Positions 1 through 57,400 of a stretch of 64,000 bases of DNA are shown one piece after another. Source of the DNA: Obrimoposthia wandeli (lineage: Eukaryota); assembly GCA_977020255.1 (NCBI GenBank), contig CDROCS010001811.1, positions 62,001 to 126,000 of the forward strand. The letters run 5' to 3'. Position numbers and translations under genes: made by a program. The notes under the pieces are model-generated. The model saw only the letters and a program-made list of their open reading frames with translations. It made no database searches and was not told where the DNA came from. Position 1 is the first letter of the stretch. Each line of letters opens with the position of its first letter.

Positions 1-186
1 TTTGTATTGTTGCCGTGGCAACTACGGCACGTGTCAAGGTCACGTTTTTGTTTTAATAATCAATTTTTTGCGCAAAATTTAAAATTTTCAAAATGGCTTT
101 TTTGCGCAAAATTTAAAATTTTCAAAAAAAAAAAATTTCTTTAAATTTTCCAACAAAAAAAAAACTTGAAAATTTCAAACTAAAAA
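1..186. repeat. Left terminal inverted repeat (inner part)
   Basis: 3-186 is the reverse complement of ~12660-12922 (e.g. TGTATTGTTGCCGTGGCAACTACGGCACGTGTCAAGGTCACGTTTTTG). Confidence 0.93.
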
Positions 187-325
187 TTTTTTACAGAAAA
201 CAAAATTGTTTACAAAATATTTTATAGTTTAAAAATATAATTTTACACAGAACTTTTATACTTTAGAATTAAAATTTTACACATAATTTTTATACTTTAG
301 AAAAGACAAATTGGATACAATATCA

Positions 326-391
326 GCTATCAGTGTCCCCAGCAATTATTCGAATGTTGCAATTAAACTGACATATATATTTCTCTAATTG
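326..391 (-). repeat. 66-bp inverted copy of the pPolB GDTDS-coding segment
   Basis: Reverse complement matches 12076-12141 with only a few mismatches (QLEKYxCQFNCxIRIIAGDTDS). Confidence 0.85.
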
Positions 392-674
392 TTGCTGAAT
401 AATATGTCAATTGAATATAGATTTGATGTAAATGTAACCCTGGGAAAACTATTATGTGTGCATGTCTTAAAAATGGTAGGGTTAAATTATGTCATACTGT
501 ATAGAACGCACACTGTTGTTAGGATCAAAATATATATTTTCTGTAGGTTACGTCATAAGGTTAAAAAACATCAGTGTATTAAGATGTTCTTTTATTAATT
601 TTAAAATATGTATTTTTAGAATGTTATAAATTATTATAGTTTATAAATGAGAAAACAAATTAGAAAATAAACAT

Positions 675-1053
675 TTATTTACTAATCCCATCAAATATTT
701 TCCAAATAGGAGTCACTAATCCACTAGGTCCGATCTTGTATCCTTGTATCTTCATATTGATATTCCATTGTAATCCAGTTAGGCATTCAATTAATATTGA
801 TCCATCTATATTTCTGAAAATGGCTTCATCTCCTTTGATAATGAATTTGGGTTCTTGCAGACAATACTCACAATTAATTTTTTTAAGTATTTTATTTATC
901 AGCTTTAATAATATTGGAAATCAGGTAATTGAATTTCTGTTTTTCCACCGATACTGGATATCTGAAATTATAATGGATGGGGTTCTTGAGAAAATGCATC
1001 TCGTAACCATGAAAAGTATGAACACATTGATACAAATCGGTTATGGCTTGCAT
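675..1053 (-). pseudogene. Polinton accessory gene of unknown function (1-nt frameshift near 895), missed by the ORF track
   Basis: Hand translation: MQAITDLYQCVHTFHGYEMHFLKNPIHYNFRYPVSVEKQKFNYLISNIIKADK / KILKKINCEYCLQEPKFIIKGDEAIFRNIDGSILIECLTGLQWNINMKIQGYKIGPSGLVTPIWKIFDGISK*. It aligns with the ORFs at 28405, 39807-40191 and 54997. Confidence 0.75.
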
Positions 1054-1066
1054 TTTTATGAAAATT

Positions 1067-1625
1067 TATGAAATTTCTCATCGTTTATATATAAATCAAT
1101 GTAGATATTAACCAATGAGAGTTAAATGGTGTGTTTATAGAACATTAATAATTATTCAAAACAAATTATCTATAGAATATTCTAGTTAAATAATTATATA
1201 AATAATTATATGAAATTTCTCATCGTTTATATATAAATCAATGTAGATATTAACCAATGAGAGTTAAATGGTGTGTTTATAGAACATTAATAATTATTCA
1301 AAACAAATTATCTATAGAATATTCTAGTTAAATAATTATATAAATAATTATATGAAATTTCTCATCGTTTATATATAAATCAATGTAGATATTAACCAAT
1401 GAGAGTTAAATGGTGTGTTTATAGAACATTAATAATTATTCAAAACAAATTATCTATAGAATATTCTAGTTAAATAATTATATAAAAAAATATATGAAAT
1501 TTCTCATCGTTTATATATAAAATCAATGTAGATATTAACCAATGAGAGTTAAATGGTGTGTTTATAGAACATTATTAATTATTAAAAACAAATTATCTAT
1601 AGAATATTCTAGTTAAATAATTATA
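1067..1625. repeat. Tandem array, 142-bp unit, about 4 copies
   Basis: TATGAAATTTCTCATCG recurs at 1067, 1209, 1351 and 1493. Each unit contains a palindromic TTTATATATAAA and a CCAAT. Confidence 0.95.
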
Positions 1626-1718
1626 TTATATTTGTTTTATCGCATCAATGAATTAATTATCAAAAAACAAGTGTTTGTTTAATCGATTTTATCAGTAAAT
1701 CATAAATTTAAATTTAAT

Positions 1719-1904
1719 ATGGAAGAAACAATTCAAAGAAACAGGAACAGAATCCTGGATCTTGACTTATCCTTTGAAGAGAAGGTCCAGATGCTTCGGC
1801 CGTTTATGGTCAGAGAAGCTCTGGAGGTAGAGGAAATACCTGGGTTTGTGAGATTCAACCCAGGACATGTCCCTACATTTGATCTTGCTCCTCAGTGGAC
1901 TTGA
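1719..1904 (+). CDS. Small Polinton hypothetical protein (61 aa)
   Basis: ATG-initiated ORF inside the element with coding-like composition. No recognised motif. Confidence 0.45.
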   Translation: MEETIQRNRNRILDLDLSFEEKVQMLRPFMVREALEVEEIPGFVRFNPGHVPTFDLAPQWT

Positions 1905-2178
1905 TAGGTCTAACCCTAACCCTATGAGAATGAACAACGGCATATATTTAACATTTGTAAAGTATATTCATTTTATAAATATTTAGTTTTCATTTAACCT
2001 ATTTTAATTAATATTTATCATAATTATGAATATCTAAACTATATAAGTTGTAATTAATAGTCTAAAAATTGAATACATTTTTTGTAAATAGTTGTCAAAA
2101 GTTTAAATATATTTTTTCAAATTATAAGCTGTTAATAAATATTTTTAAATGTTTCTGCATAATATAAAATTGGTTAAC

Positions 2179-2659
2179 ATGAATTATAAGGGAAAGGTTT
2201 TAAGTTCCACCAAGGACTTACCTTTTCGCAAATCAAAACCCCAACAATATCGTCTCAAGTGTCTAGATTATACTATAATACTCTTTAAATCTGGTAAATT
2301 ATTTTATTAGAAAATATTAATATTTTTAAGGCTCCTGTCGAGTAATGGGTTGTAAAAAAGTGTTAGATGAAAGCACTTTACCATTTAATATAAAAATCGA
2401 AAGAATTCAATCAATTACTGTTAGTGTTGACTTGGAACATTGGATAAATCTTAACAATATGAGTGAAAATATGGGAATTGATGCAGTTTATGAACCAGAA
2501 ATATTTCCCGGACTTCGTTGTATTAAGTATAATCCGCTTTGTGTAAACATTTTTGCTAGTGGGAAAGTTATGATTTTAGGTTTAAAGACTCTAGATTATG
2601 AATTTCTGGTTGAAGTTATTTTGTATAATATATCTCTGTTCACTTGTATTTTTCTTTAG
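2179..2659 (+). CDS. TATA-binding-protein-like protein, spliced (2179-2293, 2331-2659; 147 aa)
   Basis: Repeat 2 reads YEPEIFPGLRCIKYNPLCVNIFASGKVMILGLK, resembling TBP YEPELFPGL...LIFVSGKVVLTGAK. Removing a 37-nt GT-AG intron joins repeat 1 in frame (IILFKSG|SCRVMGCK, resembling LIFSSGKMVCTGAK). Confidence 0.85.
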
Positions 2660-2717
2660 TTTAGTAATAAATTATTTTATCTTATAAACATTATTCCTTA
2701 TCATTCATTTATTTATT

Positions 2718-3365
2718 ATGGAATTGAAAAACAATGCCGTTTTTCAAATTGTAGGACCAAGTGGAAGTGGGAAAACCCATTTTATTTGTAAATTACTTCA
2801 AAATAATAAATATTTTAAATCAAAATTCAATAAGATATATTGGCATCAGGGTGGAGATGGGGAAGCTGGTTTAACTAGTATTGAGTTTAAGAAAATTAAA
2901 AATATTAAAGTCATTAAGGGATTTGATGAAAATTGGTCTGATCGATTACAACGTCATGATGTTATTGTTATTGATGATTTGTATCAGGAAGCCAATAAAG
3001 AGAGTGATTTCAATAATTTATTCACGAAAATAGCAAGACATCGAGAGGTTACTGTTATTTTCATTACACAGAACTTATTTCACCAGGGCGGTAATCATAG
3101 AACTCGTAATTTGAATGTACATTATCTTGTTTTATTCAAGAATCCTCGTGATCAGACAGTAGTTGATTTTGTTTCAAGGTAAGCTTACCCGAATAACAGA
3201 AATTTCCTAATTGATTCATTTCAAGATGCTACGAATCTTCCTCACGGGTACATTTTCATTGATTTTACTCAAGAGTGTCCTGATGAATTAAGAGTTAGAA
3301 CGGATATATTTAATTCAGGAGGTATTTCCGTCTTTAAACAATTGAAAAACCAAGTATCTCGATAA
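2718..3365 (+). pseudogene. A32-like packaging ATPase with an in-frame stop at 3180-3182
   Basis: Walker A GPSGSGKT, Walker B VIVIDD, KIARH and ITQN motifs. Homologous frame continues past the TAA (AYPNNRNFLIDSFQDATNLPHGYIFIDFTQECPDELRVRTDIF) to 3365. Confidence 0.9.
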
Positions 3366-3763
3366 TGCATTTTAAAAAGGAAATTATTAAACCTGAAGTT
3401 AAGAGATTGATCAAGTCGGTTGTAACCGAAAGAAAAATGGTGAATACGAACTCAAGAAGTATTCCTTATTTGAATTCTCTTATGAGAGCACCATCTATTC
3501 GTAGACCGGCTATTCTTAAATCGTTTCCAACTTTTGTAATTGACGATATTCTAAATATGGTTCATAAAATAGTTTCAGGTAAAGTCCCTGTTAAATCGAA
3601 ATTGAATCGACATAAAAAGCTTCTTCTTGCTATGTTTCAAGCTAAAACAAAAGCCGGTAAACGTAAGTTACTGTATAAGCAAAGTGGAGGATTTCTTGGT
3701 TTTCTAGTTCCGATAATTAGTTCTATTGTCGGTGCACTCGCTGGAAAACTAATAAATCGATGA
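3365..3763 (+). CDS. Polinton conserved basic protein (PW-like) with C-terminal QSGGFLG plus hydrophobic helix
   Basis: Basic 132-aa ORF ending KQSGGFLGFLVPIISSIVGALAGK, a pattern typical of Polinton virion core/membrane-active proteins. Confidence 0.7.
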   Translation: MHFKKEIIKPEVKRLIKSVVTERKMVNTNSRSIPYLNSLMRAPSIRRPAILKSFPTFVIDDILNMVHKIVSGKVPVKSKLNRHKKLLLAMFQAKTKAGKRKLLYKQSGGFLGFLVPIISSIVGALAGKLINR

Positions 3764-3859
3764 TTATAAACATAGATTTCAGGTTAAAAATAATATTTTA
3801 TATGGGATCACTTTCATCAATACCTAAATTCAATATAAAAATCATATCGTCTTGTTGTA

Positions 3860-4888
3860 ATGGAGAAAATATGGTTCGACCCAAGTCATCCCGTTGGTTA
3901 CACAGGAGTTTCTAAATTGGCAAAAGAGGTAAAGAAAGGGAAAAAGGAAACTCGGGAGTGGTTGTCAAATCAATTAGCATACAGCTTAAACAAACCAATG
4001 AGACGCCGATTCCCGACGAGATCATACAAGACGAGCGGACCAAATGATTTATGGCAAGCTGATTTGATGGAGATGATTCCATATGCAAGTATTAACGATG
4101 GATACAAGTATATTTTAACTTGTGTTGATGTTTTCAGTAGGTTCGCTAGAGCTATTCCCCTAAAGTCTAAATCCGGTACAGATGTTTTAGAAGCCATGAA
4201 GCAATTACTAAAAGAAATAAAACCAACAAATTTTCAAACTGATAGTGGAAAGGAATTTTATAATAAACATGTTATTGCATTATTGAATAAACAGGAAATA
4301 AATCATTATTCTGTGTTTTCTCAATATAAAGCTGCTCTAGTTGAGAGATTTAATCGGACGTTGAGAGAACGTTTGAAAAAGTATTTCACTAAAGTCGGGA
4401 ATAAGACATGGATCACCGTTTTGCCTAAAATTATACATGCATATAATCACAGTGAGCACTCATCATTGGACGGTAAGAGACCGGTAGACATTTCCGATGA
4501 AAATGCTATGGAAATATGGCAACAACGAAATCAGCGTATAGTTGTAAAGAAACCGAAATATAAGATTGGAGATTATGTGCGAATTTCCCAAATAAGTACT
4601 ACTCCTTTTATAAAGAATTTCAAAGAGAATTGGAGTGATGAGGTTTTCCAAATAACTAAAATTGATTCCAAACATGTTCCGGTAATGTACTTTATTGAGG
4701 ATGAAACCAATAATGAAATTGCTGGAAAGTTTTATCATGAAGAACTACAAGTATTACCATCAAAACCTAGAGTATACAGAATTCAAGAAATCTTAGAAAC
4801 AAAGGGTCGTGGAAAGCATAAACAATACCTAGTTAAGTGGCACGGATATAGTGAACCTAGTTGGATATTAGCTTCTCAAATAGAATGA
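3860..4888 (+). CDS. Polinton retroviral-like integrase with C-terminal chromodomain
   Basis: DDE motifs WQADL, QTDSGKEF and LVERFNRTL. C-terminal YLVKWHGYSEPSW chromodomain. ORF is intact. Confidence 0.95.
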   Translation: MEKIWFDPSHPVGYTGVSKLAKEVKKGKKETREWLSNQLAYSLNKPMRRRFPTRSYKTSGPNDLWQADLMEMIPYASINDGYKYILTCVDVFSRFARAIPLKSKSGTDVLEAMKQLLKEIKPTNFQTDSGKEFYNKHVIALLNKQEINHYSVFSQYKAALVERFNRTLRERLKKYFTKVGNKTWITVLPKIIHAYNHSEHSSLDGKRPVDISDENAMEIWQQRNQRIVVKKPKYKIGDYVRISQISTTPFIKNFKENWSDEVFQITKIDSKHVPVMYFIEDETNNEIAGKFYHEELQVLPSKPRVYRIQEILETKGRGKHKQYLVKWHGYSEPSWILASQIE

Positions 4889-5913
4889 GTTCAATGTATA
4901 TTGTTTTACCAAGTAATGGGTGTCCATTAACTCAACCTGATAATACAGCAAGTCAATTTAGTATTGATTAGCAGAGCACAATAAATTTACCTGGGCATTG
5001 GGAAGCTGCTCTGACGGAATTTTCATTTAATTATTCTCCTTTATCCATTAAAGGAGGGTCAATGATAGATTATGTTGCTCGGAAAACAATAAAAACTGAA
5101 GTTGAAGCTGGTGTGAAAATGAAACATGGAGAATTTTTCGTCAAGTATATAACTCCAATTAATAGTAAATATGTTATTTACCTTAGCGGCGAAAACAAAA
5201 TACGTATAACTTGCACTATAGGACAAGCTTTCAATTTAGAAATTGATAATAAAAGTTTAGCATTAAGTTACGGTATGAAAGAAGCTGCTATTGAAAGTTT
5301 GTTTTATGAATCGGAATTACCAAATCAAATATATGATTTACCGACTTTAAAGATAAAGATGCATCATTATAATCAAGAGGATGTACGTGAGCAGTATGCA
5401 TTCGAAAATGATTGCTTATTTTCCAATGTTGAAAGTCTTTGTCAATATTTCATGAAAAATATTGATAATATATTTGAAAGCTTTTATGTTAAAAAGGAGA
5501 TAATTGAGTTTAAATTGAAACCACATGTAAAAGAAATAAATATGGATAAAAATTTAGCTACAATTATTGGATTCAATGAAAACAGTTTTAAAAATCTTAA
5601 TAAAGTTTTCCGAGCATCTAATCGGGCAAAGCTAAGTAATGCATATAATCAGATTTATATTTACACAAGTATTACTGAACCGATATTTGTGGGTGGAAAT
5701 AAGCTTCCATTAATAAAATCTATTTGGGTTCAACAGGAAAAGCACAAGTATGGAGATATTATACATATTCCAATTGACAATCCAATGTATATTCCAGTAA
5801 GCTCTAGCTTTATAAACAACATTGAAGTTAACATTCGAGATGATTCTGGAAGATTAATTAAATTTTCATTTGGAGCTAAAACAAGTTTAACAATACATTT
5901 TAGAAAAATATGA
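4885..5913 (+). pseudogene. Minor capsid protein (penton, PX) with an in-frame TAG at 4969-4971
   Basis: ATG 4885 gives MSSMYIVLPSNGCPLTQPDNTASQFSID*QSTINLPGHWEAALTEF, the typical penton N-terminus, in frame with ORF 5062-5913. C-terminus IEVNIRDDSG...LTIHFRK. Confidence 0.85.
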
Positions 5914-6263
5914 TTGATTCAAGTATAATTAATGCATATAGTAAACCAATGCAAGGAGGTGATTTACCTTATTTTGCTGGAAAACAGTATGGATCAGGAT
6001 GGATGAAAGTTTTTGGTCGCTTTGCTTTCCCTCTACTAAAACAACTTGGGAAATTTATTGCTAAAGTTGGATCAAATTACTTATCAGGAGACGAAAAATT
6101 TCTTCCCACACTCAAAAAATCGGCTCTGGACGAGGTAGATGAAATTTATCCTAGTCTTGCAAAACTTTTGAGAAAACAAAAAGGAAGTGGATATAAACGT
6201 AAGAAAATCACTAAAACATCTGGTATAAACAAGCGTTTAAAAGGTACAATATTCACGAAATGA
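5910..6263 (+). CDS. Polinton basic core-protein-like ORF (117 aa)
   Basis: Lies between penton and MCP. Contains MQGG, QYGSGW and QKGSG motifs, an amphipathic helix and a basic C-terminus. Confidence 0.7.
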   Translation: MIDSSIINAYSKPMQGGDLPYFAGKQYGSGWMKVFGRFAFPLLKQLGKFIAKVGSNYLSGDEKFLPTLKKSALDEVDEIYPSLAKLLRKQKGSGYKRKKITKTSGINKRLKGTIFTK

Positions 6264-7485
6264 GTTGTGCTAAAACCGAATTGTGTATTTTTGACAAACC
6301 ACTGCCTCAGGTAGTAGTTGATAGTGCTAATTTTGAGGAAATATTTCCAACAAATACCGTCAGTGGAACTTCTTCTCCGGATTTGGAATTCAATATAAAT
6401 GGATCGAATTCTCAATATCTTGATTTGAATGATAGTCTACTTCTTGTGAAATTGAAGGTTACAAATCAAGGAGGTGCTAAACTAGAATATGATTTGGAAA
6501 TCAAAGCGGCCAATTTCATGTTTCATACGTTATTTAAGGATGTGATTCTCAGTTTCAATAATGTTAAGGTCGAAGGAAATAATACAAGTTATACGCATAA
6601 ATCAATGATTGAAACATTACTGAATTACGGAAATGATACGAAATTGATTAATCTTGATGCTATTGGATTTGATGATGACGAAGAAAACAGAAAAGCTTGG
6701 ATTGAAAAGTCTAAGGTTTTGTCACTATGTGGAAGTCTTCATTTGGATTTCTTTAAGCAGCCAAAGTATCTTTTGCCTGGAATAAATGTCCATATTAGAA
6801 TGAAGAGAAACCCGGTAGGTTTCAGTATTGTTTGCGCTGAAACAATTACTCCTGCAATTGAGATTACAGAAGCAAAGTTGCTGGTTCGTAGAGTAAAGGT
6901 TGAACCGTCAGTACTTATCGCTCATCGCATGGGGCTTGAGAAGCAAAATGCATGTTATCCCATAAGAAAAACTAATCTTGTTTCTCATGCAATTATGGAG
7001 CGCTTTCTTATTACAAGGACCAGATTTTCGGTGACATGCAGCTCCCGAACTTTGTTTTAATTGCTTTCCAGAACACATCGACCTATGGAGGAAGCTCTAA
7101 AAGGGAAGTTTCTGAATTTGGTCATATGCATGTGAACTCAATAAAACTTGCACGTAATATTGATTATCAGGAAACTTACTCTAATGACTTTGAAAACGAT
7201 GATTATGTGTTTTCTTATGTGCAATCTCTAATTAGAAATCTTGGTCATTTGGATAAAGATTCTAATGTCGGTATTTCATTGCAAGATTTCAAAGACAAGT
7301 ATACACTATTCACATTTGTTCTTTCTCCGGATTTCGACATTACCCAAGCTCAAATTCCTAAACAGGGAAATTTGAAAGTAGAAATCAAGTTTACCAAAGC
7401 ACTTAAAAATCCAACTAATATCATAATCTATGGAGTATTTGATTCTGAAATCCAAATCACTAAGGGTGGAACTGTACTTGTATAA
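6260..7485 (+). pseudogene. Double jelly-roll major capsid protein (PY), frameshifted near 6990
   Basis: N-terminus CAKTELCIFDKPLPQ...LEFNING...YLDLNDSLL. The reading continues in the other frame as YGALSYYKDQIFGDMQLPNFVLIAFQ into ORF 7036-7485 (ends YGVFDSEIQI). Confidence 0.9.
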
Positions 7486-7516
7486 ACAGAAAATGATTCA
7501 AAATCAATTAAAAAAA

Positions 7517-7895
7517 ATGAAGTAAGCCTCTTTTGTTGTATTAATTAATATATAATTTTAGTTCCGACGAGATATTAATAAGCGGCAAAAAACTACTCGG
7601 ATCGCGTTTCAATGGAGTCTTCAGTCTTGATCGTATCCCACCATTGACTCGTCTAGGTGGATATGTAATCAATACACATTCCTCTAATTTACGAGGTGAA
7701 CATTGGATTGCAATACATGTTGAGAAAAAAGAAATATTTGTTTTTGATCCTCTTGGGTTATATTATCCATCTAAATTAACATCAAAAGTACTTGATTCTA
7801 ATAAAAAGGTTTATTTCAATAAAGTACATGTTCAAAACATTTTAACAAGATCATGTGGTCAGCTATGCCTATTATGGCTGACATTGAAAGCATAA
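7517..7895 (+). CDS. Adenain-like cysteine protease, spliced (7517-7521, 7562-7895; upstream in-frame ATG at 7493)
   Basis: Catalytic H (GEHW), D (FDP) and Q/C (QNILTRSCG). Removing a 40-nt GTAAGC...TTTTAG intron gives MN|SDEILISGKKLLGSRFNGVFSLDRIPPL in frame. Confidence 0.9.
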
Positions 7896-7924
7896 ACAAG
7901 TAGAAGCAATAAATATTTATTATC

Positions 7925-8419
7925 ATGGGTACTTGGTTTATTGATTTTGAGGCATTCAAAGAAAATAATGCATTTGTAATAAAGGAATTATGTATAATGA
8001 ATGTAGATAATATTTTACATCCATGGCATTATGCATTTAAAATGAAATCTATTTGGAATTCAATGAGTCGTAAATCAAGAAAAATCAATAGATATTTAGT
8101 TAATCATTATCATAAATTGAACTTAACTGATGGGAATTGTTATTTTAATATAGTTGAAATTAATAATGAAATCAAAAGTATGTGTGATGTTTCAAAGGCA
8201 ATATTCTATATTTTAGATGAACATGATGGAGAAAAAGTAAAAACCATAAGAAAATATTTCCCAGAATTACAAATATTTAATTACTCTAGAACATTTAGAC
8301 AGTTAGATCTTATTCCTTTTAATATTAAATGTCCATTTAAAGAACATGGAATGCATTGTGCATATAAGAAATGTCTAAGTTTAAGTTTGGATTTCTTAAT
8401 TTCGAATCGGCAATGTTAA
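7925..8419 (+). CDS. Polinton accessory protein, DnaQ/DEDD-exonuclease-like N-terminus
   Basis: FIDFEAF...VIKELC N-terminus and C-terminal CPFKEHGMHCAYKKC. A decayed homolog lies at 27690-28140. Confidence 0.65.
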   Translation: MGTWFIDFEAFKENNAFVIKELCIMNVDNILHPWHYAFKMKSIWNSMSRKSRKINRYLVNHYHKLNLTDGNCYFNIVEINNEIKSMCDVSKAIFYILDEHDGEKVKTIRKYFPELQIFNYSRTFRQLDLIPFNIKCPFKEHGMHCAYKKCLSLSLDFLISNRQC

Positions 8420-8537
8420 CCTTACGATTATGTCATGCATGTTTTTGTCAACTGCTGTATGTTATGTAATACAAGCAGCTTGAATTATGATAGAGGTTAA
8501 TTGCTTGTATGTAAAATAACACACATCGTCTTTTTAG

Positions 8538-8568
8538 TATATAAGATTCGACAAATTAGAAATCAGTT
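8538..8568 (+). promoter_or_regulatory. TATA box plus TCAGTT initiator of pPolB
   Basis: TATATAAG at 8538 and TCAGTT at 8563, about 25 nt apart, just upstream of ATG 8591. The same TTTAGTATATAAG context recurs at 28221-28233. Confidence 0.6.
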
Positions 8569-8590
8569 CTTCTACAAACAAACTTAGAAA

Positions 8591-11500
8591 ATGGTAAGAT
8601 TGTTTTTTCCCAAAATTTTTTAAAATTTATTTTAGAATTGTAATATGCGAAGAAAACTGTGTTTCAACACAAATCACGAGCAGTGCCGAGCTCAGATGGA
8701 GCAGTACTTTGAAGTACGCAACAATGGAAGAACATTCTTTGTCTGTCCTGTGTGTCTGTCGGCAGAACAGATCGACTGGACGAGTTTTGCAGATCGACAT
8801 GAAGATCACCTGACGCATTTCCAGGTTCGAGGCAAGAAATCAATTTTCAATGCTGCACAATCTTCTCCACAATCTGCTATCACCAACTCATCTACTGCTA
8901 TCATGCCTGCTCCTGTTGCCGTCAATCCAGCAGGTCGTAATCCTTCTTTTACTAATGCATCTACCCGCAAGAGAAGTGTTATGCCCACTTCAGGTAGCTC
9001 TGCATCTCATGGAATTAGTGCGGGGGCTAGTCGGAATGTTATCCCTGCTAGCTCTGCTGCGAAGAGGGTGCGACCTAATACGTCAGTAAGATCGGGTTTA
9101 AGGGGTTCAATAGAAACACTCTCTCTTGATGTTTCAAGTGAAGGGATGTTGATTTTAGATGTGCCAGAATATTTTATTGATACTCTGCGCACAACTATTT
9201 CTAAATTTATCACCTGTAAGGTGCAATTCGGGGTTAAGGTAGAATTCTCTAAGGATGAGGAGATAAAGTTTTGGAATGTGTCAAATAAGGGAGTTGAATT
9301 CAGCAATGAGTTTATTGCTGATGGGATAGCAGCCCTTAATCAAAAAATTGAGAATTACTCTCAGAATGGTAGTAATTGGACGGTAACCCGTTTCCAAGAG
9401 ATATCATTTATTGTCACAAAAACAACGACAATGAATTATCTTCAAGGGCGGAGTTATATTCCAACTCCTTATAGGCTTGGACTTTCACACGCTGTGATTA
9501 ATGTTCAGAATACGTCAAACGTTTTCTGCTTTTTATATAGTATTTTAGCTGTACTTTTTAGGGATTTATTTAAAAGTAACCCTACTAGACCTCGTCAATA
9601 TGAGGGACTTTTCTCAGAGCTCTTTTATGATGAGGCCGATATGCCAATGCGTCTGGGCAATATACCGCGATTTGAGAGTGAGAATCCTAAACTCTCAATC
9701 AACGTATTTTCTTTCAATAATTTCGGTTGTATTCCTCCCAATGAAGAAATTTTTAAAAATCCATTCATTGATGTAATATACCGAACCACAAATCCCAGCG
9801 GCACACCGGTAAATCTTCTTCTTTTAGAAAATGATTCTGGTTTTCATTATGTGGCGGTTCCTAGACTAAGCAAATTACTAAATTTTAGGAATAAGGGACC
9901 TGCTACTCGAATTAGGTGTACTTGGTGCCATAAGTGTCTTCATGGCTTTAGGAATCCAATTAGTTATACCAAGCATGAGGCTTTGTGCACAATGAACAAG
10001 GAGCATACGACTCTCTATCAGATGCCTTCAAATAAATATATCGCTTTTACTGATTTCAGTAAAACGGTATCACCTCCGTTTGCCGTTTACGCCGACTTCG
10101 AGGCAGTTTTGCCGCCGCATGGGATTCATCATCAGATTCATCTGCCCATTGCGGCCGGTATGTTGATGTCTCCAATCACAGCTGCTTCAAATGGATTTAC
10201 ACAGGACTACTCTTTTTTCACAGGAGAATCTTGTGTGGTTTCTTTTCTTAAAAAATTGGAGGAGTTGGCTAGGGATGTTGTTCTTCCATGGTATCGAGAT
10301 CATGCTGTTGCAGTAATGCGCGCGCTAACATTGGAGCAAGTAGCTAGTTTCCATGCAGCTACTACATGTTACCTGTGTAATAAGCGCTGCGTTAACAAGG
10401 TCAGGGATCACGACCATATGACTGGTGAATACCTTGGAGTATCTCATTCAAAGTGTAATTTATCGCGGAGAATAAATCGTTCTTTTCCTGTTATTTTTCA
10501 TAACTTGAGAGGATACGATATGCATCATATCCTTAAGCATGCGATAACTCAGTTTTCACATTGGGATATATCAGTCATACCCCAATCAACTGAGAAATTT
10601 CAGGCTATGATCGTACACGTTCATGGAATGAGTATTCGATTTATCGATTCGCTGCAGTTCCTGAATAGTTCTCTTGACAAACTCGCAAGTTACCTGGATG
10701 TTACTCCACTTACGCATTCTGTCTTCTCATCTCATCTCGTGTCCCGGAAAGGCATATTCCCGTATGACATGGCCACTTCAGAGACTGCTCTCCGGGCAAT
10801 CACAAGTCTCCCGCCTAAATGGAGTGAAGGTATAGAAGATGTCCAGTATGAACAAGCACTGAGGGTTTGGGACGAGCACAGCTGTACATCTCTTTGGGAT
10901 TACATGCTCCTGTATCTGAAGATCGACGTATACCTCCTTGCTGATGTTTTTACAACGTTCCGGAAGAAAGCCATCGCCGATGATTCATTGGAGCCGCTCA
11001 ACTTCTTCTCGATTCCTGGTAAATTTTAGTAGTAGATTTTAGTAATCATTTTCAGTAATCGATTTTCTGTAATTTTCAGTAACAATTCTTTTAAAAGTCT
11101 TTATTTTAATTCTTTAACAATTCTTTAAAAAATCTTTAATTTAATTCTTTAACAATTCTTTAAAAAATCTTTAATTTATTTTTCTTCCCAGGATTATCAT
11201 TCGCGAGCGCTCTCAAGTCTTTGCTTCCTTCTACCTCGTCGCCTAATGAGATCAAGGTGGAACTTGTTCAGGATCCAGAGATGTACTCCCTGTTTCGTGA
11301 AGGCATCAGAGGAGGAATGACATTTGTCAACGAGCACAAGGTTGATGCAGTGAATGGTTGTGAGCTCTTATACATTGATGTAAATAATCTGTATGGATGG
11401 GCTATGTCCCAATTTTTACCTTGTGGTGATTTTAAGAGGGTAACTGACCAGTTAGATTTAGGGGTTATAATTTCCGAGCTCTCATTTAAGGATTTAAGTT

Positions 11501-12621
11501 GTAGTAGCTTTGCTCATTTGATGGAGGTGGACTTATCCATTCCTAAAGAGCTGCACGATAAACTAGACGATCTCCCCTTAGCTCCGCGAAAGGAATGCTC
11601 TATTGGTAGTAAACAACCAAAATTACTTCTGACTCATTACCCTAAAAAGCATTATATTGTGCATTCCAGATTGCTTCAAATGTATATAAGACTTGGTGCG
11701 AAAGTAGATTATGTACATAGAGCAATACAGTTTGCACAAACTAATGTTTTTGCAAAGTATATTGAGGATAATTCCGCGAAAAGGGCTAGTGCTGCAAATG
11801 ATTTCGAGCGGGAATATTATAAATTGAAGGTTAATTCTCTGTTTGGTAAGTTAATAGAGAATTTAATGAAGAGAATTAACCTCCGTATTTGTAATACGCC
11901 ACAAAAGCTTGTTACCTATTGTAGTAAAGCCCAATTTCGTAGGACGATGGAAATCGACACAAACGTAATAGCTGTTTTACTAAATATGCAAACTGTCGTT
12001 TTAGATCGTCCTAGTTATATTGGTCAGGCAGTTCTGGATTTAAGTAAGTTAAGGATGTATGAGCTTCAATATGTTCAATTAGAGAAATATAGATGTCAGT
12101 TTAATTGCGACATTCGAATAATTGCTGGTGACACTGATAGCTTTTTTCTAAAGTGTGATAATGTAGATGTGCAAGCTACACTGTTGCCAGCAATGATTTC
12201 GGATGGGTTATTAGACACATCAAAATTCCCTATAAACCATCCTTTATTTACTTTAGCCAATACTGCGATAGGCAAGTTTAAGGATGAAAGTAAGGGTGTC
12301 TGTAGATATAAGCAATGGGTATTTTTACGCCCCAAATCATATAGCTTAGAAACTATAGACGGAAAGTCCCAGATGAGAGCAAAGGGAATTAGCCTTAAGC
12401 AGACTGCACTACGCCATGCGAATTATTTAGCCGCATATGAGAGTGGGGTTAGTGAACGAGTGCAACAACAACGCATTAGTTCAATTAATCACCAGCTCTA
12501 TACAGTAAAATTGAGTAAGATCGCATTGAGTAGCAATGACGATAAGAGAAAATGGGTAGAGAAAAACCGGTCAGTTGCCTATGGACATCACCGATATCCA
12601 GATGTTTTTTCACTTGAATGA
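8591..12621 (+). CDS. pPolB: Protein-primed family B DNA polymerase, 3 exons (8591-8593, 8636-11018, 11192-12621; 1271 aa)
   Basis: Exo motifs YADFE, FHNLRGYD and YLKIDV. Pol motifs YIDVNNLYG, KLKVNSLFGK, GDTDS and PKSY. The 173-nt intron 11019-11191 joins SIPG|LSFASALK in frame. The 42-nt intron 8594-8635 follows an ATG-only first exon. Confidence 0.95.
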
Positions 12622-12659
12622 TTGTTTTTGTATGTTTGAATTTATATGTCTCAAATTTA

Positions 12660-13114
12660 TTTTTAGTTTGAAATTTTCAAGTTTTTTTGTTTGTTGGAAA
12701 ATTTAAAGATTTTTTTTTTTGAAATTTTTAAGAATTTTTTTTTTTTTGAAATTTTTAAGAATTTTTTTTTTTTTGAAAATATTAAGATTCTTTTTTTTGT
12801 TTAAAATTTTAAATTTTGCGCAAAAAAGCCATTTTGAAAATTTTAAATTTTGCTCAAAAAATTGATAATTAAAACAAAAACGTGACCTTGACACGTGCCG
12901 TAGTTGCCACGGCAACAATACACACATGTGGCACGTGCCATGGTGTGCGCGCACGTGCCATGGTGTGCGCACACGTGCCATTGTGTGCGCACACGTGCCA
13001 GGTGTGCGCACACGTGTCAGTTGTGCACGTGCCATGTCACGCGACTTGTTGCTAGGGTCTTCTTGCTCACTTGCACACAGGGGGGGTGAGCCAGAAGACC
13101 CACTTCCCCCTACT
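12660..13114. repeat. Right terminal inverted repeat with GC-rich CACACGTGCCA/TGTGCGC subrepeats
   Basis: Inverted match to 1-186. The outer ~190 bp contains short GC-rich repeats and ends in TACT. Confidence 0.88.
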
Positions 13115-14169
13115 ATCATATATGAATATGCAACATCAATGTTAGTGGTATTTCTCCTATAAATGCAGATTGTACATATATTAAAAAAGAAAGCTTCTAA
13201 TTATTACAATTGGGCTTGTATTTCAAAATGATTTTCTATTAATTCAGTTTACCAATGAAATCGGCTGCAAACATTTTCAAACAAAGCTGCTAGTATTATA
13301 TTCAAAATAAAAAAGATTTAGTGCAAGTGAACATTTAATGAAGCTCCACAACCAGAACTAAATTTAGAATCCTACTTATCGTCAAAAAAGTATTTTATAA
13401 CAAAAACTCAAATATGTATGATTTTCTGAAGCTTGGTGCATCTTAGGAACAACGCTGATGGCTGCAGATTGGTCAAGAAATTCTAAAATAACAAACAGTA
13501 AAGATGGTGAAAATTTCAAGATGCTACCGAAGACATTAGTATTATTTTTTAAAATTATACTCGATTTACATTATTAATTTTGATAAAACAAACTTTTAAG
13601 ATTTATTAAGTTATTTTTAGTCAAATATACTTCAAATTGTTTGAAATATTATGATTTATGATTATACAAACAAATATTTGTACGCATCTAATTAAAATAA
13701 AACGCAAAATTGTCTCCATCTTGTATTTTATTTCTATCTTAATTCTTAGTTGTTGTGTTTGCAAATTATGTATATTTTATTTTTATTCATTTTTGGTAAA
13801 ATAAGAATGCTGTTTGAACTTTATAATATAACTTGAGTTTTAAGTAGACATATCTAAGTGATAATTTGTAATAGTCAAGGTAAGTCGAAAATTTATATAA
13901 AAAAAACTGATAATTTTAATGTTTTTATGCATGAAACGTAATCTTTAAATTAAATTTTTTAATAATACTAACTTTTAGAATGTATATAAAAGCTAACCTA
14001 AGTTACATTAACGTTGTAAGTTAGTATTGTTTAAATATTCTTATCAATGTATGATGATCACATTTATTTTTTAAAAATAATACTAATAATACTATGTTCA
14101 ATTAAAAACACGTTTAATTTTAAATACAATTCCTACGACATTCCATTAAAATTTAAGTTAAAATAATCA

Positions 14170-19999: not shown

Positions 20000-21329
20000 A
20001 TGGCTGAACATAAGTTAAATGTTCCATTAGACGCTTTCAATGGCGATAAATCTTCACTACCTGAATTTTTAAATATATTTGATTCATTTGCTCAGGCATT
20101 TGAATGGACTAATGTAGAGAAACTTAGGGTTTTTCCAGGCGTATTTAAAGGGCACTGCCTTAACAATTTATAGAGGATTAACTAATGAACAGAAAGACAC
20201 ATGGGACCATTTGGTCCAGAATTTTCAAAATATGATTTTAGGAGCACAATCAGAACAAAATTATCTTAACCAATTTAGGCAACGTGAACAACATTTGGGA
20301 GAACCCACAAATATCTTTGCAGTTGAATTACGAAGATTAGCCTTAAAATCATTTCCCGGAATTGAGGAAGTCTTAAGAGAACGTTTGCTCCTACATCAAT
20401 TTCTATATGGGCTAAACAGTAAAATAAAAAATCACCCAGCACTACTAGAAGTAGAAAATTTTCAGCAGGCTGTAAATAAGGCTCAACTTGTAGAAACAAG
20501 ATTAAACCTGTTACAACAATCTGAAGTTTCAGCATTAACCTTTGAAAAAATACAAAGACCAACAACACCACCAAATTTCAATCAAACTCAAAACTATAAC
20601 CCAAATACACAATCTAATTACCAAAGCCAACAACAATATACACCACCGACAAATAACTTTTATAGAAATCAAACAAACAGAAACTATACAGACTCACAAA
20701 TTACACAAAGACCTTTCCAGAAATGTACAAATTGTGGACTGCAAAATCACACAATAGAGAATTGTTATAAAATAACCAACAACAAATTTTGTAGATTTTG
20801 TAAAAAAGACAATCATACTATTGAAACTTGCCGAAAATTGTTATACAGACAAGGTAATAATATAATACCACAAAATAATAACTTTAATAATCCTAATAAT
20901 AATTTCAAAAATGCTAATAGTAATTTTAGAAGCCCATATAATAATTTCAATAATCAAAATAATCAAGCTAAATATTTTAATACTAATACAAAATTTTGTA
21001 AAATTTGTAATATGAAAAATCACAATACTGATGAATGTAGCAAACTAAATACAATGATGAACCAATTTGGTAACACAACAATAAAACAACAACAACCACA
21101 ACCACAGAGTCAAAAAACAGTACAGTTTAACAATCAAAATCAACAATATGCTTACAGAAACTCAATACATACTATTGAAAACACTGATATAACTCAGGAA
21201 ACAGAAGAAGTTGCATTGATGAGATTAAGACAACAAGAAATAGATAATCGCTACAAAGAAACACATCAGCAATACCAAAACAATGAGCAAAACACAAATA
21301 GTACCAACTCTCAATCCGAATTCGAATAA
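20000..21329 (+). pseudogene. gag: Ty3/Gypsy-type gag (frameshift near 20140) with three CCHC knuckles
   Basis: FNGDKSSLPEFL...AFEW...AYLKGTALTIY...W capsid pattern, QREQHLGE...LRRLA, and knuckles CTNCGLQNHTIENC, CRFCKKDNHTIETC, CKICNMKNHNTDEC. The open frame extends upstream to about 19800. Confidence 0.88.
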
Positions 21330-23860
21330 TATTTAGAAATGGTTGTCTAACATTAGAAAAAAGAACACAAATAAGTACAAAAATAAATCAAACCACTCAA
21401 ACACAAGATACAAAATCGAAAAATAAAAATAAACGATAAACACCAAAAAATAGTAAAAAGTCAACTCTTAAAAATACATATAATTTTAACAAAATCATCC
21501 AGAATTTATGGAAAATAATTCAAATAATATTTATGATATGTATAATTACAAATATAATAAAACCAGTTAATGCCCTGGAAGCGTATGATTGCTCAAAATA
21601 TAGTATTCAAAATAAATATTTCTTAATGGATTTACAACAATGTGCTGATGCCGACCCAAACGAAGTAAAAATCAAAACCACCAAGTTATTCCATGTATAC
21701 CAGGAAACAGATTTCATAAATACAGAAGTTTTCGAGTGTAGGGTACACGTAGAAACATTCATAACATATTGCAGACAACACAGCCATAACTCAATTGTCA
21801 AACCTGCACTAGGAAAAATACCAATAATTGTCGATGCACTAAATTGTAAGGACGCTTTTGCAGGAAACAGAAGAAGTTGCATTGATGAGATTAAGACAAC
21901 AAGAAATAGATAATCGCTACAAAGAAACACATCAGCAATACCAAAACAATGAGCAAAACACAAATAGTACCAACTCTCAATCCGAATTCGGAGAAATATT
22001 TAGAAATGGTTGTCTAACATTAGAAAAAAGAACACAAATAAGTACAAAAATAAATCAAACCACTCAAACACAAGATACAAAATCGAAAAATAAAAATAAA
22101 CGATAAACACCAAAAAATAGTAAAAAGTCAACTCTTAAAAATACATATAATTTTAACAAAATCATCCAGAATTTATGGAAAATAATTCAAATAATATTTA
22201 TGATATGTATAATTACAAATATAATAAAACCAGTTAATGCCCTGGAAGCGTATGATTGCTCAAAATATAGTATTCAAAATAAATATTTCTTAATGGATTT
22301 ACAACAATGTGCTGATGCCGACCCAAACGAAGTAAAAATCAAAACCACCAAGTTATTCCATGTATACCAGGAAACAGATTTCATAAATACAGAAGTTTTC
22401 GAGTGTAACACGTAGAAAGATTCATAACATATTGCAGACAACACAGCCATAACTCAATTGTCAAACCTGCACTAGGAAAAATACCAATAATTGTCGATGC
22501 ACTAAATTGTAAGGACGCTTTTGCAGGAAACAGAAGAAGTTGCATTGATGAGATTAAGACAACAAGAAATAGATAATCGCTACAAAGAAACACATCAGCA
22601 ATACCAAAACAATGAGCAAAACACAAATAGTACCAACTCTCAATCCGAATTCGGAGAAATATTTAGAAATGGTTGTCTAACATTAGAAAAAAGAACACAA
22701 ATAAGTACAAAAATAAATCAAACCACTCAAACACAAGATACAAAATCGAAAAATAAACGATAAACGATAAACACCAAAAAATAGTAAAAAGTCAACTCTT
22801 AAAAATACATATAATTTTAACAAAATCATCCAGAATTTATGGAAAATAATTCAAATAATATTTATGATATGTATAATTACAAATATAATAAAACCAGTTA
22901 ATGCCCTGGAAGCGTATGATTGCTCAAAATATAGTATTCAAAATAAATATTTCTTAATGGATTTACAACAATGTGCTGATGCCGACCCAAACGAAGTAAA
23001 AATCAAAACCACCAAGTTATTCCATGTATACCAGGAAACAGATTTCATAAATACAGAAGTTTTCGAGTGTAGGGTACACGTAGAAACATTCATAACATAT
23101 TGCAGACAACACAGCCATAACTCAATTGTCAAACCTGCACTAGGAAAAATACCAATAATTGTCGATGCACTAAATTGTAAGGACGCTTTTGCAGGAAACA
23201 GAAGAAGTTGCATTGATGAGATTAAGACAACAAGAAATAGATAATCGCTACAAAGAAACACATCAGCAATACCAAAACAATGAGCAAAACACAAATAGTA
23301 CCAACTCTCAATCCGAATTCGGAGAAATATTTAGAAATGGTTGTCTAACATTAGAAAAAAGAACACAAATAAGTACAAAAATAAATCAAACCACTCAAAC
23401 ACAAGATACAAAATCGAAAAATAAAAATAAACGATAAACACCAAAAAATAGTAAAAAGTCAACTCTTAAAAATACATATAATTTTAACAAAATCATCCAG
23501 AATTTATGGAAAATAATTCAAATAATATTTATGATATGTATAATTACAAATATAATAAAACCAGTTAATGCCCTGGAAGCGTATGATTGCTCAAAATATA
23601 GTATTCAAAATAAATATTTCTTAATGGATTTACAACAATGTGCTGATGCCGACCCAAACGAAGTAAAAATCAAAACCACCAAGTTATTCCATGTATACCA
23701 GGAAACAGATTTCATAAATACAGAAGTTTTCGAGTGTAGGGTACACGTAGAAACATTCATAACATATTGCAGACAACACAGCCATAACTCAATTGTCAAA
23801 CCTGCACTAGGAAAATTACCAATAATTGTCGATGCACTAAATTGTAAGGACGCTTTTGCA
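21194..23860 (+). repeat. Tandem amplification of a ~667-bp gag-end/env-start unit (4 copies)
   Basis: The env start MICIITNII recurs at 21533, 22200, 22864 and 23531. Three copies jump from env GCTTTTGCA back to gag GGAAACAGAAGAAG. Confidence 0.95.
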
Positions 23861-54400: not shown

Positions 54401-57400
54401 TTCTTCATCTAAATGTGAACCAATCAAATAATCAAGGTCATCTATAAATGCTAGACTATGATCACCTTCAATATGAAAAGAATTTCCTTCATATGCATAA
54501 TCTGGTAAGAAAAATCCCAAAATATTTTTGAATTGATAAATATCAGATGTTGTTAAAATTTTAATTAGATATTTATTTTTCGCTTTTGACATTTTCACAG
54601 GATTCATAACTCGTATAATTTGATGCCTCTTTAATATATTACATGGTTTTCCTTTTGAAATTCTTTCGGATAATAAAAATATCATACATAACTCAGAAGA
54701 GAAATAAACCGATTAAAAACAATGTTTATATAAAAATATATTTAAACAAGATACAAAAATTATGAAAAAAAATTTAAATTAAAACTGATTGAAATTTATT
54801 ACCATAAAACATACAGGAACAAATGAAATAAACATGGTAAAAATAAAGTAACATAGAAGAAAATAAATTGACAAAACAGAATTTTTTCAATTTTCCACAT
54901 AGGTAGATTTTTTTTCAATGTTAAACCTTCTTGTAACCATAAAGTCGAATTGTTACACTCCATTGCTTCTTTTTCGGAAAACCTGTCAACATCAATTTAT
55001 CTTTCATATTCACATAAAAATGCTGAATCAGCTCTTGGGATATAAAATTTGTTTTTATCGAATGTAAAATTTACAACAGTTTTTTGTTTAAGATATTTAA
55101 AAACTGATTTATGAATATTTGATAAATAATAGCTAAACGTTCTTCTTTCTATTGTCACAGGATTTACTAAAGCAATTATTTGAGCCTTCTTAAAGAACCT
55201 GACTTTGTATTTGAAATATTGTTTCACTTCTTGATACATATTCTTATTCGAATCTTCAAACATTTCTTAATATTCATAATCGCTCAATATTTGTGGGCTA
55301 TTTTCCATCATTGATAATTGTCTTTGATATGAATGCATTTATAATTATTTGTTCTTCAATTATATTTATACTCATTGGTCAATATAACTAAATCATTGAA
55401 TTTTATTGGACTAAATCCATATTTAAAATTAAAATTGATTGGAATAAATATGTTAAATTTCAATCATCCAATTATAATATGTTTGCAAGATATTGACGAG
55501 AAATGGGCAATAATAAACAAGTTAATACATATATAAAGAAGAATTTGAAGAAAACAATTTTAGTCTAATGAAACTCGAAATATAAATTATTAAGGAAGAA
55601 TAAAATATGATATTTTATAGTTACTATTCAATGAGTGGAAGCTGAGACAATATGTGAAAAGTTTGATGATTTTACAGTTGTTATTTTTCCTTCAGATTAG
55701 TTTTTATTTATTTTCATATTCAAATTTTCTTGGAAATTGTCGTGTTATGAGATGCAAAATCTCGTTGAATGAAATAAATCTACTCGTTGGAATTAAAATC
55801 AGCACCATATAATAAACCCCAGGTTCAGGCAACCTCAGAAAACCAATAAATCTTTATGAAATTGCCGAGAAAATGACAAAAGAATGCATGTTTGAACCTG
55901 AATTTTTTCTGTCACTCAGATATTTAAATTTTACACAGCTAATAAATTTTCTACTTATATTGATATTGAGATTGAGAAATTTGGAATCGATTTTACGAAA
56001 TATATTTTATTATTTTTGTTATCTTTTCAATAAACCATTTTAACAAACTCATTTTAATTAAGCTTTTAATAAGGAACAAATATTTGGTGACGTAAGATTA
56101 CCACAATTCGTTTTAATTTAATTTCAAAAAGATGTAACGTTTCTAGGAAATTATACGACAGATGTAACACAATTCTTCACATTTATTTTGGCGCAAAACT
56201 TTGATATAAACCAATGCCAACTATCAAAACTAAGAAAATTACGTATAGAAATTACATTCAATGCTGCTTTAACAAATCCTACTACAATGTTTATTTAAGG
56301 AGTATTTGATTCAGAATTACAAATCAACAAAGAAAGTCATATAATAGAAAGAAATCATGGAGTTTCTTTTTAAATTAATAAATGTTTCATAATTTTAATT
56401 TAATTCAGTGCAAGTTCAAGAATCAGCGAAGAAGGTATTGGCAGAAAAATTCAATGGAGTTTATCCTATATATGATTTTTTTTTCAAACCTGGAGGCTAC
56501 ATTATCAATACCCATCTTTCGAATTTATCTGCAGAACATTGGATAGCTATTTATGTTAAAGAGTGAACAATATATGTATTTGATTTGCTAGCAACGTATT
56601 ATTCACGCAAGCTTGTTTCTCTTGTTCAAAAAGGACGAAGAAGAGTATTTTAGAACAACATACAATACCAGGATCCCGCAACCAGAAACTGTGAACACTT
56701 ATGTATTTTGTGGTTATCGTTGCAAAAAGATTAATGCGTTATTATAGTAAAATATTAAATAAGCATATTTTATTTAAATTTTTTTGAAACCCCTTAATAT
56801 TTGAATAATAGTAGTAAAATACATAAAACAGTTTCTTAATAAACATTTATTTAACAATAATACATCACAAATAAAGAATATATGTTAGAAATGATAATAA
56901 ATAAAACTCAACCTAAATAAGTATCGAAAAAACAAAAAGTTAGACTTAACAGGCTCTAGGGATGTAAAAAATTTAAACAAAATTAATCAAATTAAGAAAA
57001 CTATTTAAAATCGGAAGTACCCATAAGCCAAACTAGTGTTTTTTCTATCCAAAATCGATTGTCGGTCATTACTACTTAAAGCTATTTTAGTTGACTTATG
57101 GAACTACAGTTTATGGGCTCTTAAAATAAATCTAGTTTGCTCGACGCTTTTAATACGCCCAGTATTATAAACTTTCCTATATGCCTAATGTGTTAGACTG
57201 TTTGTTCTCACACCATTTGCTCTTTGTTTGAATATGTATTATTAGATACATGTAAACTTTAGCATTTATGGTGTAGTAAAATACAATCATCATACGAAAC
57301 CTGACCCTCGCTTTCATCCTTAAATTTCTAGACAATTTCCTTTGAACTCATTTAGTGTAGAGGATGATTAACGGGATTTTTATGGGTATGAAGTAAGTTA

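What the first reader, a model, noticed from the sequence alone, without database searches (positions are those of the whole stretch)
2179..2659. Polinton encodes a minimal, intron-containing TBP-like protein
Seen: with a 37-nt intron removed, the gene gives a 147-aa two-repeat TBP fold. Repeat 2 keeps both DNA-kinking phenylalanines (FPG, IF); repeat 1 is shortened and keeps only LF. A decayed ortholog at ~55780-55930 shows it is a stable family gene. Established: TBP is not among the canonical Polinton core genes, whereas many NCLDVs encode divergent TBPs. Inference: it could redirect Pol II to the element's TATA promoters or antagonise host TBP.
Basis: partly seen in the sequence, partly recalled or inferred. 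Interest (0 to 1): 0.7.

Follow-up and report, generated by a model that had tools for sequence, protein, structure and literature searches.

The report
Polinton mini-TBP with matching promoter box
A virus-like jumping element carries its own stripped-down TATA-binding protein, split by a predicted short intron, and its packaging and capsid genes sit behind a non-standard TATA box, so the element likely uses this protein as a private on-switch that borrows the host's transcription machinery.

Summary
Confirmed, with one correction. The gene is a TBP relative (Pfam E 1e-11). The model of an intronless homologue overlays human TBP at Z 14.1. The 37-nt GT-AG intron (2294-2330) sits where intronless homologues run straight through and recurs at the same codon in sister families; no RNA was available. 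The likelier start is 2149 (157 aa), not 2179. The N-lobe lacks both helices and one DNA-kinking Phe, the surface that host regulators bind. The C-lobe keeps the TFIIB-binding glutamates, and no element-borne TFIIB was found. In TBP-bearing relatives ATAAAC precedes the ATPase (12 of 12) and capsid (4 of 7) genes against 2.5% background; 14 of 39 TBP genes have a canonical TATA and none has TATAAAC. A distant TBP-less family lacks the box (0 of 33, weak control). Best reading: an early-made factor that switches on late genes through host TFIIB and Pol II; binding is untested. 'TBP' already labels a MELD-virus gene in Starrett 2021, and this scan found the system before on other DNA, including this genome.

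The parts
2149..2293 (+).
   Evidence: homologue model
2294..2330 (+). predicted 37-nt GT-AG phase-1 intron
   Evidence: no RNA evidence
2331..2659 (+). TBP-like gene, exon 2: N-lobe strand S5, no helix H2, complete C-lobe with E-P-E-x-F stirrup
2123..2128 (+). TATAAG, candidate core promoter of the TBP gene (weak; sister families have a canonical TATA about 35 nt before the start)
   Evidence: sequence
2683..2689 (+). TATAAAC box, 35 nt before the packaging ATPase start
6224..6230 (+). TATAAAC box, 36 nt before the putative major capsid protein start (a second copy at 6192)
7481..7487 (+). TATAAAC box, 36 nt before the predicted first mini-exon of the protease (ATG 7517)
7891..7897 (+). CATAAAC box, 34 nt before ORF 7925-8419 (no Pfam family)
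8538..8545 (+). canonical-type TATA (TATATAAG) before the predicted first mini-exon of pPolB (ATG 8591)
1..13121 (+). host Polinton/Maverick copy (left end about 140 nt upstream of the window; terminal inverted repeats; ATPase, integrase, putative capsid genes, protease, pPolB). This copy has an in-frame stop in the ATPase and a frameshift in the capsid gene
55579..55932 (+). decayed TBP-like gene of a second Polinton family, intron remnant at the same codon

Best explanation
The gene encodes a reduced TATA-binding protein of a Polinton that is likely made early from a host-type TATA promoter and then likely binds the element's TATAAAC boxes and recruits host TFIIB and RNA polymerase II to switch on packaging and capsid genes. 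Shown: TBP homology, residue pattern, the two promoter classes in sequence, purifying selection. Predicted: the fold (from a homologue), splicing. Inferred: DNA binding to TATAAAC, TFIIB binding through the kept glutamates, escape from host regulators (TFIIA, TAF1, Brf, Mot1/BTAF1, NC2) through loss of the N-lobe helices, and early/late timing.
For: Fold: AlphaFold2 on P0001 with 43 rows, pLDDT 96.5, four N-lobe strands with no helix, complete C-lobe; Z 14.1, rmsd 2.3, 146 aligned to human TBP. Profile comparison shows a 13-residue gap at helix H2. A distant family member is modelled with both helices. Stirrup: E in 40 of 43 (D in 3) and E in 42 of 43 homologues. These positions bind TFIIB, and the basic patch on N-lobe H2 binds the regulators (PMC7221094, passages). 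PF00382 gives 12 matches from 29 candidates in the genome, against 19,768 candidates for PF00352. Promoters, metagenomic loci: ATAAAC at -55..-25 in ATPase 12 of 12, ORF7925 9 of 10, capsid 4 of 7, background 2.5%; TBP gene TATAAAC 0 of 39, canonical TATA 14 of 39, background 3.1%. Own-genome sister regions: ATPase 10 of 10, capsid 7 of 7, ORF7925 5 of 5, ORF3365 6 of 7; TBP gene 0 of 11 with ATAAAC and 9 of 11 canonical. Control: 0 of 33 starts in PF21738-type Polintons without TBP. A C at position 7 is a poorer site for cellular TBP: TATAAACG gave 27% activity (PMC10005294 Table 4), and the C(-25) variant 1QN3 needs a Hoogsteen pair to avoid a clash (PMC8643651, PMC4402545). dN/dS of exon 2 against the two closest sister copies: 0.185/1.99 and 0.169/1.44.
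Against: No binding, expression or timing data. The box is missing at -55..-25 before integrase (0 of 4; 0 of 11), ORF5910 (1 of 6; 0 of 7), penton-like (2 of 5; 0 of 6) and protease (0 of 4; 0 of 1); some have it further upstream. 25 of 39 TBP genes lack a strict canonical TATA in that interval. Loci are related, so the P values overstate independence. The control is essentially one distant family with only 6 capsid and 1 ATPase start; no close TBP-less relative was available. Cellular TBP still works on TATAAAC at reduced level, and the host has several divergent TBP and TFIIB paralogues that could read the box. 34 of 57 metagenomic loci show no core Polinton gene, most being short (22 of 33 loci of 2 kb or more do). 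That the N-lobe reads the 3' half of the box is recalled, not from a call.
Confidence: 0.65

Rival explanations
1. The box is a deliberately weak TATA read by host TBP or a host paralogue; the element's TBP is a non-specific booster or bends other element DNA (terminal or 142-bp repeats) for replication or packaging.
For: TATAAACG keeps 27% activity with plant TBP. The host has at least six TBP/TRF-like loci. The 142-bp repeats at 1054-1626 carry TATAAAC twice per unit on the minus strand. The control is weak.
Against: Near-invariant non-canonical residues at positions that face DNA in cellular TBP (S70, R105, C113, N115 of P0001 in 43 of 43; N6 in 42 of 43; their DNA-facing role is recalled) argue for an altered, selected specificity. 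The TBP gene itself avoids the box, as expected if host TBP must start the cycle.
Confidence: 0.18
2. The protein is a host-shutoff factor: it occupies host TATA boxes or sequesters TFIIB in complexes that lack the surface for TFIIA and TAFs.
For: TFIIB stirrup kept, regulator surface lost; three of four Phe kept.
Against: Does not explain the element-specific box or the split between TBP-gene and structural-gene promoters. The gene persists in several high-copy integrated families, which a general shutoff factor would make costly (inference).
Confidence: 0.1
3. In this family the 37 nt are not spliced: the gene is a frameshifted relic of a 39-nt in-frame insertion and is carried passively.
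For: Most sister families have 39 nt, and two lineages are in frame and stop-free. 37 nt is shorter than the two host TBP introns read (47 and 48 nt).
Against: GT and AG ends are kept while the interior diverges; lengths of 33-40 nt occur; other 39-nt versions hold in-frame stops. 10 of the 11 common variants listed within the two exons are third-position (44 further variants of the stretch were not shown). Similar 40- and 42-nt GT-AG introns are predicted in the protease and pPolB genes.
Confidence: 0.07

Closest known systems
Cellular TBP, Pfam PF00352 (human 7egb_P/1cdw_A, yeast 1ytb_A, archaeal 2z8u)
   Same: Two-lobe saddle over the whole length (Z 13-14); C-lobe with both Phe and both TFIIB-binding Glu.
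   Different: About 150-157 aa; no N-lobe helices H1 and H2; N-lobe stirrup Phe replaced by a P-x-Q motif; fixed changes in the sheet; 22-26% identity; forms a branch apart from cellular TBPs and one host paralogue (SH-aLRT 97, quick tree).
TBP-like proteins of large dsDNA viruses (NCLDV; BFVD hits; survey in PMC7221094)
   Same: Virus-encoded TBP fold with a degenerate N-lobe regulatory surface.
   Different: Per PMC7221094 (passages) those mostly lose the stirrup Glu (about 40% kept) and come with a viral TFIIB; here the Glu are kept and no TFIIB is detected. 'Polinton' does not occur in that paper's main text.
Beta/gamma-herpesvirus viral TBP mimics (BcRF1, ORF24, UL87) and TATT late promoters (mechanism recalled; BcRF1 is a weak fold hit, E 2e-3)
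   Same: Same proposed logic: a viral TBP-like factor paired with a one-base variant of TATA at late genes, using host Pol II.
   Different: Those are large multi-domain proteins in a viral complex (recalled); this is a bare saddle that likely acts through host TFIIB. The variant base differs.
'TBP' gene label in MELD viruses with adintovirus-like PolB (Starrett et al. 2021, PMC8502044, Fig. 5 legend)
   Same: A TBP-like gene in a Polinton-like genome was already noted.
   Different: Only a legend entry; no structure, promoter or intron analysis in the passages read. The figure is not held, so whether it is this family is unknown.

Membership tests
TBP family (PF00352) | Profile match above the curated cut-off | tested here: met
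   exon 2: 44.7 bits, cut-off 22.9
TBP family (PF00352) | Two-lobe saddle fold | tested here: met
   model of homologue P0001, Z 14.1, 146 of 147 aligned; the window's spliced protein itself was not folded
Canonical cellular TBP | Four DNA-kinking phenylalanines | tested here: not met
   three of four; F40 42 of 43, F101 and F117 43 of 43; N-lobe stirrup Phe absent
Canonical cellular TBP | N-lobe helices H1 and H2 with the basic regulator patch | tested here: not met
   no helix in residues 1-82 of the model; 13-residue gap at H2
Canonical cellular TBP | C-lobe acidic stirrup for TFIIB | tested here: met
   E-P-E kept (positions per PMC7221094); binding itself untested
Canonical cellular TBP | Binds and bends TATA DNA | not testable with these tools
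   needs EMSA or a structure
NCLDV-type TBP-TFIIB pair | Cognate viral TFIIB in the same genome | tested here: not met
   PF00382: 12 matches from 29 candidates genome-wide, not at element copy number; no TFIIB hit among element ORFs; a very divergent TFIIB could be missed
Herpesvirus vTBP (ORF24/BcRF1/UL87) | Large protein with extra polymerase- and complex-binding domains (recalled) | tested here: not met
   homologues mostly 144-181 aa, covered by the saddle
Herpesvirus vTBP (ORF24/BcRF1/UL87) | Variant TATA at late promoters read by the viral factor | tested here: inconclusive
   variant box present; reading by this protein untested
Polinton/Maverick | pPolB, rve integrase, A32 ATPase, adenoviral-type protease, terminal inverted repeats | tested here: met
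   PF03175, PF00665, PF04665; PF00770 E 3e-4, just under cut-off; inverted ends
Polinton/Maverick | Double jelly-roll capsid protein | tested here: inconclusive
   6260-7485 has no capsid Pfam hit; assigned by size (424-aa open frame in sister copies), conservation and position
Polinton/Maverick | Target-site duplication | not tested
   not examined
Spliceosomal intron | GT-AG ends at a site where homologues are continuous | tested here: met
Spliceosomal intron | Removed from the transcript | not testable with these tools
   needs RNA reads or RT-PCR

The most novel reading that the evidence does not exclude
A large Polinton lineage runs its own two-step transcription code on host Pol II. An ancestral virus-borne TBP was rewired to read a variant box, one branch then shed the whole regulatory face of its N-lobe to become a minimal, regulator-proof TBP, and different branches pair different TBPs with different boxes (TATAAAC here; a TAAGA-type box in unchecked earlier notes). 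That would be a natural library of orthogonal TBP-promoter pairs and an early/late programme in elements whose particles have not been seen.
Probability: 0.35. Interest if true: 0.85.

Novelty: new variant of a known kind. Interest (0 to 1): 0.66.

Why it matters
How Polintons control their capsid genes is open. A self-encoded TBP with a matching box gives a concrete, testable switch and implies a virus-like early/late cycle. The protein is also a natural experiment on TBP: it keeps the TFIIB side and deletes the side that TFIIA, TAF1, Brf, Mot1 and NC2 bind, unlike most surveyed viral TBPs, which bring their own TFIIB. The same-site intron in some families and its absence in others of one genome is a clean case of intron presence-absence in a mobile virus-like gene.

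Tried and rejected
No RNA holder was listed; the four runs laid are contigs of one sample and showed no joint at 2293/2331 among the 15 joints listed (11 not shown); this says nothing on splicing. A junction pattern search for intron-less copies of this family in the genome gave 0 matches. Four scans of viral contigs (TBP alignment, ATPase, ATPase alignment, capsid) found no relative, so no close TBP-less control was obtained. My first guess of a start codon at 2164 in sister copies was wrong (0 of 30). TAAGA, the box named in earlier notes, is not enriched here (ATPase 0 of 12, capsid 1 of 7). A search of the genome with a distant, helix-keeping member (P0147) returned only mini-type families in the 10 regions examined, so box-protein co-variation could not be tested. 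Codon-position counts on L001-L030 were set aside for exon 2 because these loci were picked for 100% protein identity. The intron-less test misfired on L127, L212, L214 and L216, which carry an insert; their '0' rows are not counted. The tree (69 rows, 111 columns, quick method, three rows dropped for lack of an anchor motif) cannot decide one or several intron gains, nor the donor of the gene. Atlas: generic TBP clusters only. No complex prediction was run: host TFIIB lies in exon pieces and a pass would follow from solved structures. Patikoglou 1999 is not held; cited only through other papers. A search for TATAAAC + Hoogsteen + TBP found 0 papers.

Full report
1. Setting. The window is G000:C1811:62001-126000 of a 1.35-Gb AT-rich genome; an earlier unchecked note calls the host a probable planarian, which I did not test. 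Bases 1-13121 are one Polinton copy with inverted ends, the left end about 140 nt outside the window. It holds an A32 ATPase, rve integrase and pPolB, a protease and putative capsid genes. This copy has an in-frame stop in the ATPase and a frameshift in the capsid gene. The family is abundant: all 150 scored matches to exon 2 were 98-100% identical, from 30,770 first-look candidates (not a copy number).

2. The gene is real. Exon 2 matches Pfam TBP (E 1.2e-11) and solved TBPs. A protein search gave 53 homologues among 56 candidates, mostly 144-181 aa and called as single ORFs. Exon 1 is 59% identical to the start of P0001. In 27 of 57 metagenomic loci both exons hit next to each other; in 30 only exon 2 passed the cut-off. 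23 of 57 loci, and 22 of 33 loci of 2 kb or more, also carry Polinton core genes, with the TBP gene either before the ATPase or after ORF7925. A profile search of 50%-clusters gave 59 at E 1e-30 or better; their context is unknown. None of the family members listed carries an NCBI name.

3. The intron. 2294-2330 is 37 nt, GT...AG, phase 1, scored in 29 of 30 sister copies. Other families of the same genome have a GT-AG insert of 33-40 nt, mostly 39, at the same codon, and one group has none. Two lineages have a stop-free in-frame 39-nt version, which counts against a strict need for splicing there; others have in-frame stops. Host TBP introns read are 47 and 48 nt. The element has further predicted introns of 40, 42 and 173 nt. 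Splicing is predicted, not shown. The likelier start is ATG 2149 (29 of 30 copies; matched by sister families), giving 157 aa.

4. Anatomy. AlphaFold2 on P0001 (43 rows) gives pLDDT 96.5: four N-lobe strands with no helix, then a complete C-lobe. Foldseek's top 44 ranks (E up to 0.001) are TBP chains in the rows shown; VIA gives Z 14.1, rmsd 2.3, model 1-147 on human TBP 164-336. Profile alignment shows a 13-residue gap at H2. More distant members keep H1- and H2-length segments but share the family's motifs, and one is modelled with both helices. This suggests specificity changes first and helix loss later, an order inferred and not tested on a rooted tree. Three of four Phe are kept; the stirrup Glu are kept in 40 of 43 (D in 3) and 42 of 43. 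PMC7221094 (passages) assigns these Glu to TFIIB binding and the N-lobe H2 patch to TFIIA, TAF1, Brf, Mot1/BTAF1 and NC2, and reports that most viral TBPs lose the Glu and come with a viral TFIIB. PF00382 finds 12 matches from 29 candidates in this genome, so no element-borne TFIIB is detectable. S70, R105, C113 and N115 are invariant and non-canonical. By my recall the last three align with the positions of the classic altered-specificity TBP mutant; PMC10005294 confirms only that three changes in the second repeat alter specificity. Exon 2 is under purifying selection between families (dN 0.17-0.52, dS 1.4-2.0 or saturated, 8 comparisons).

5. Promoters. The lead came from earlier scan notes; I tested it afresh. 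In the 57 loci, after removing near-identical upstream regions, ATAAAC was the top de novo hexamer before ATPase, capsid, ORF7925, penton-like and ORF5910 starts (29 of 40). At -55..-25: ATPase 12 of 12, ORF7925 9 of 10, capsid 4 of 7, penton-like 2 of 5, ORF5910 1 of 6, integrase 0 of 4, protease 0 of 4, ORF3365 0 of 2; background 2.5%. Before the TBP gene: ATAAAC 2 of 39, TATAAAC 0 of 39, canonical TATAWAWR 14 of 39 (background 3.1%). Ten own-genome regions repeat this: ATPase 10 of 10, capsid 7 of 7, ORF7925 5 of 5, ORF3365 6 of 7, integrase 0 of 11, ORF5910 0 of 7, penton-like 0 of 6; TBP gene 0 of 11 ATAAAC, 9 of 11 canonical. These are related sequences, not independent draws. The window has the box 34-36 nt before the ATPase, capsid, protease and ORF7925 starts. 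Control: ten regions around PF21738-type capsid genes (10 of 91 matches) had no TBP gene apart from a nested TBP-family element in one, and 0 of 33 recognisable starts had ATAAAC. This is about one distant family with 6 capsid and 1 ATPase start.

6. Mechanism. Cellular TBP kinks DNA at steps 1-2 and 7-8 (PMC10005294, PMC1935006; passages). C at position 7 lowers activity to 27% in a plant test, and the C(-25) complex 1QN3 uses a Hoogsteen pair (that -25 is position 7 is recalled numbering). The lobe that is remodelled here is, by recall, the one that sits on the 3' half of the box, where the element's box deviates. I therefore favour (0.65) an early factor, made from a host-type promoter, that reads TATAAAC and recruits host TFIIB and Pol II. 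Rivals: a weak box read by host factors with the element TBP acting elsewhere (0.18), host shutoff (0.10), an unspliced relic in this family (0.07).

7. What is known. Searches: polinton + TATA-binding protein (5 papers), polinton + TBP (6), maverick + TATA + capsid + integrase (7), polintons/TATA-box binding/accessory genes (22), polinton + spliceosomal intron (17), a five-term search (52, 30 listed), mavericks + TBP (6); most were seen as listings only. The one direct mention is the 'TBP' label in figure legends of Starrett et al. (PMC8502044: passages, section 3.4 and one supplement file searched without a hit; preprint passages; its supplements and all figures are not held). Term look-ups found no TBP or TATA in the main text of PMC11161782, PMC11131425, 10.64898/2026.10.13.758929 and 10.64898/2026.06.19.733378. 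PMC12209930 was read in passages for the four-Phe rule. The library lacks most subscription papers and Repbase, so absence from print is not established. The tree separates the family from 11 cellular rows including one host paralogue (SH-aLRT 97, quick method); no NCLDV rows were included, so the donor is open.

8. Verdict. Real, and richer than first read: a minimal Polinton TBP with a matching variant box. It works like the herpesvirus late-promoter systems (recalled) but is not a member of them; a new variant of a known kind. The scan noted the same system before in other genomes and elsewhere in this one. Interest 0.66.

Noticed in passing
window 7522-7561, 8594-8635, 11019-11191: Further predicted GT-AG introns (40, 42, 173 nt) in the protease and pPolB genes; the first two follow an ATG within five bases.
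   Followed up: partly
window 1054-1626: 142-bp tandem repeats carry TATAAAC twice per unit on the minus strand and canonical TATA-like runs on the plus strand; repeat number differs between sister copies.
   Followed up: partly
window 675-920, minus strand: ORF of no Pfam family whose homologues lie next to the TBP gene in 21 of 57 metagenomic loci; a possible partner, untested.
   Followed up: partly
L208, L210, L212, L214, L216: Sister families in which the TBP intron is 39 nt, in frame and stop-free, so retention would add 13 residues beside a DNA-kinking Phe.
   Followed up: partly
L117-L126, L186-L197: The host has two head-to-head TBP genes plus at least four divergent TBP/TRF-like loci and several TFIIB/Brf-like paralogues.
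   Followed up: no
L085:225-722 (minus), L094:1665-2168: TBP-bearing metagenomic elements carry a ubiquitin-conjugating enzyme (E 1.7e-12) or a RING finger.
   Followed up: no
window 21195-24834: 668-bp tandem repeats and a Monjiviricetes-type fusion glycoprotein gene in two pieces, outside the Polinton.
   Followed up: no
window 34580-35047 and 62754-63272: ORFs with TUG-type ubiquitin-like domains.
   Followed up: no
window 7925-8419: Conserved ORF without a Pfam family, with the TATAAAC-type box in 9 of 10 homologous loci; my 'exo' label for it in scripts is a guess from an acidic N-terminal motif.
   Followed up: no
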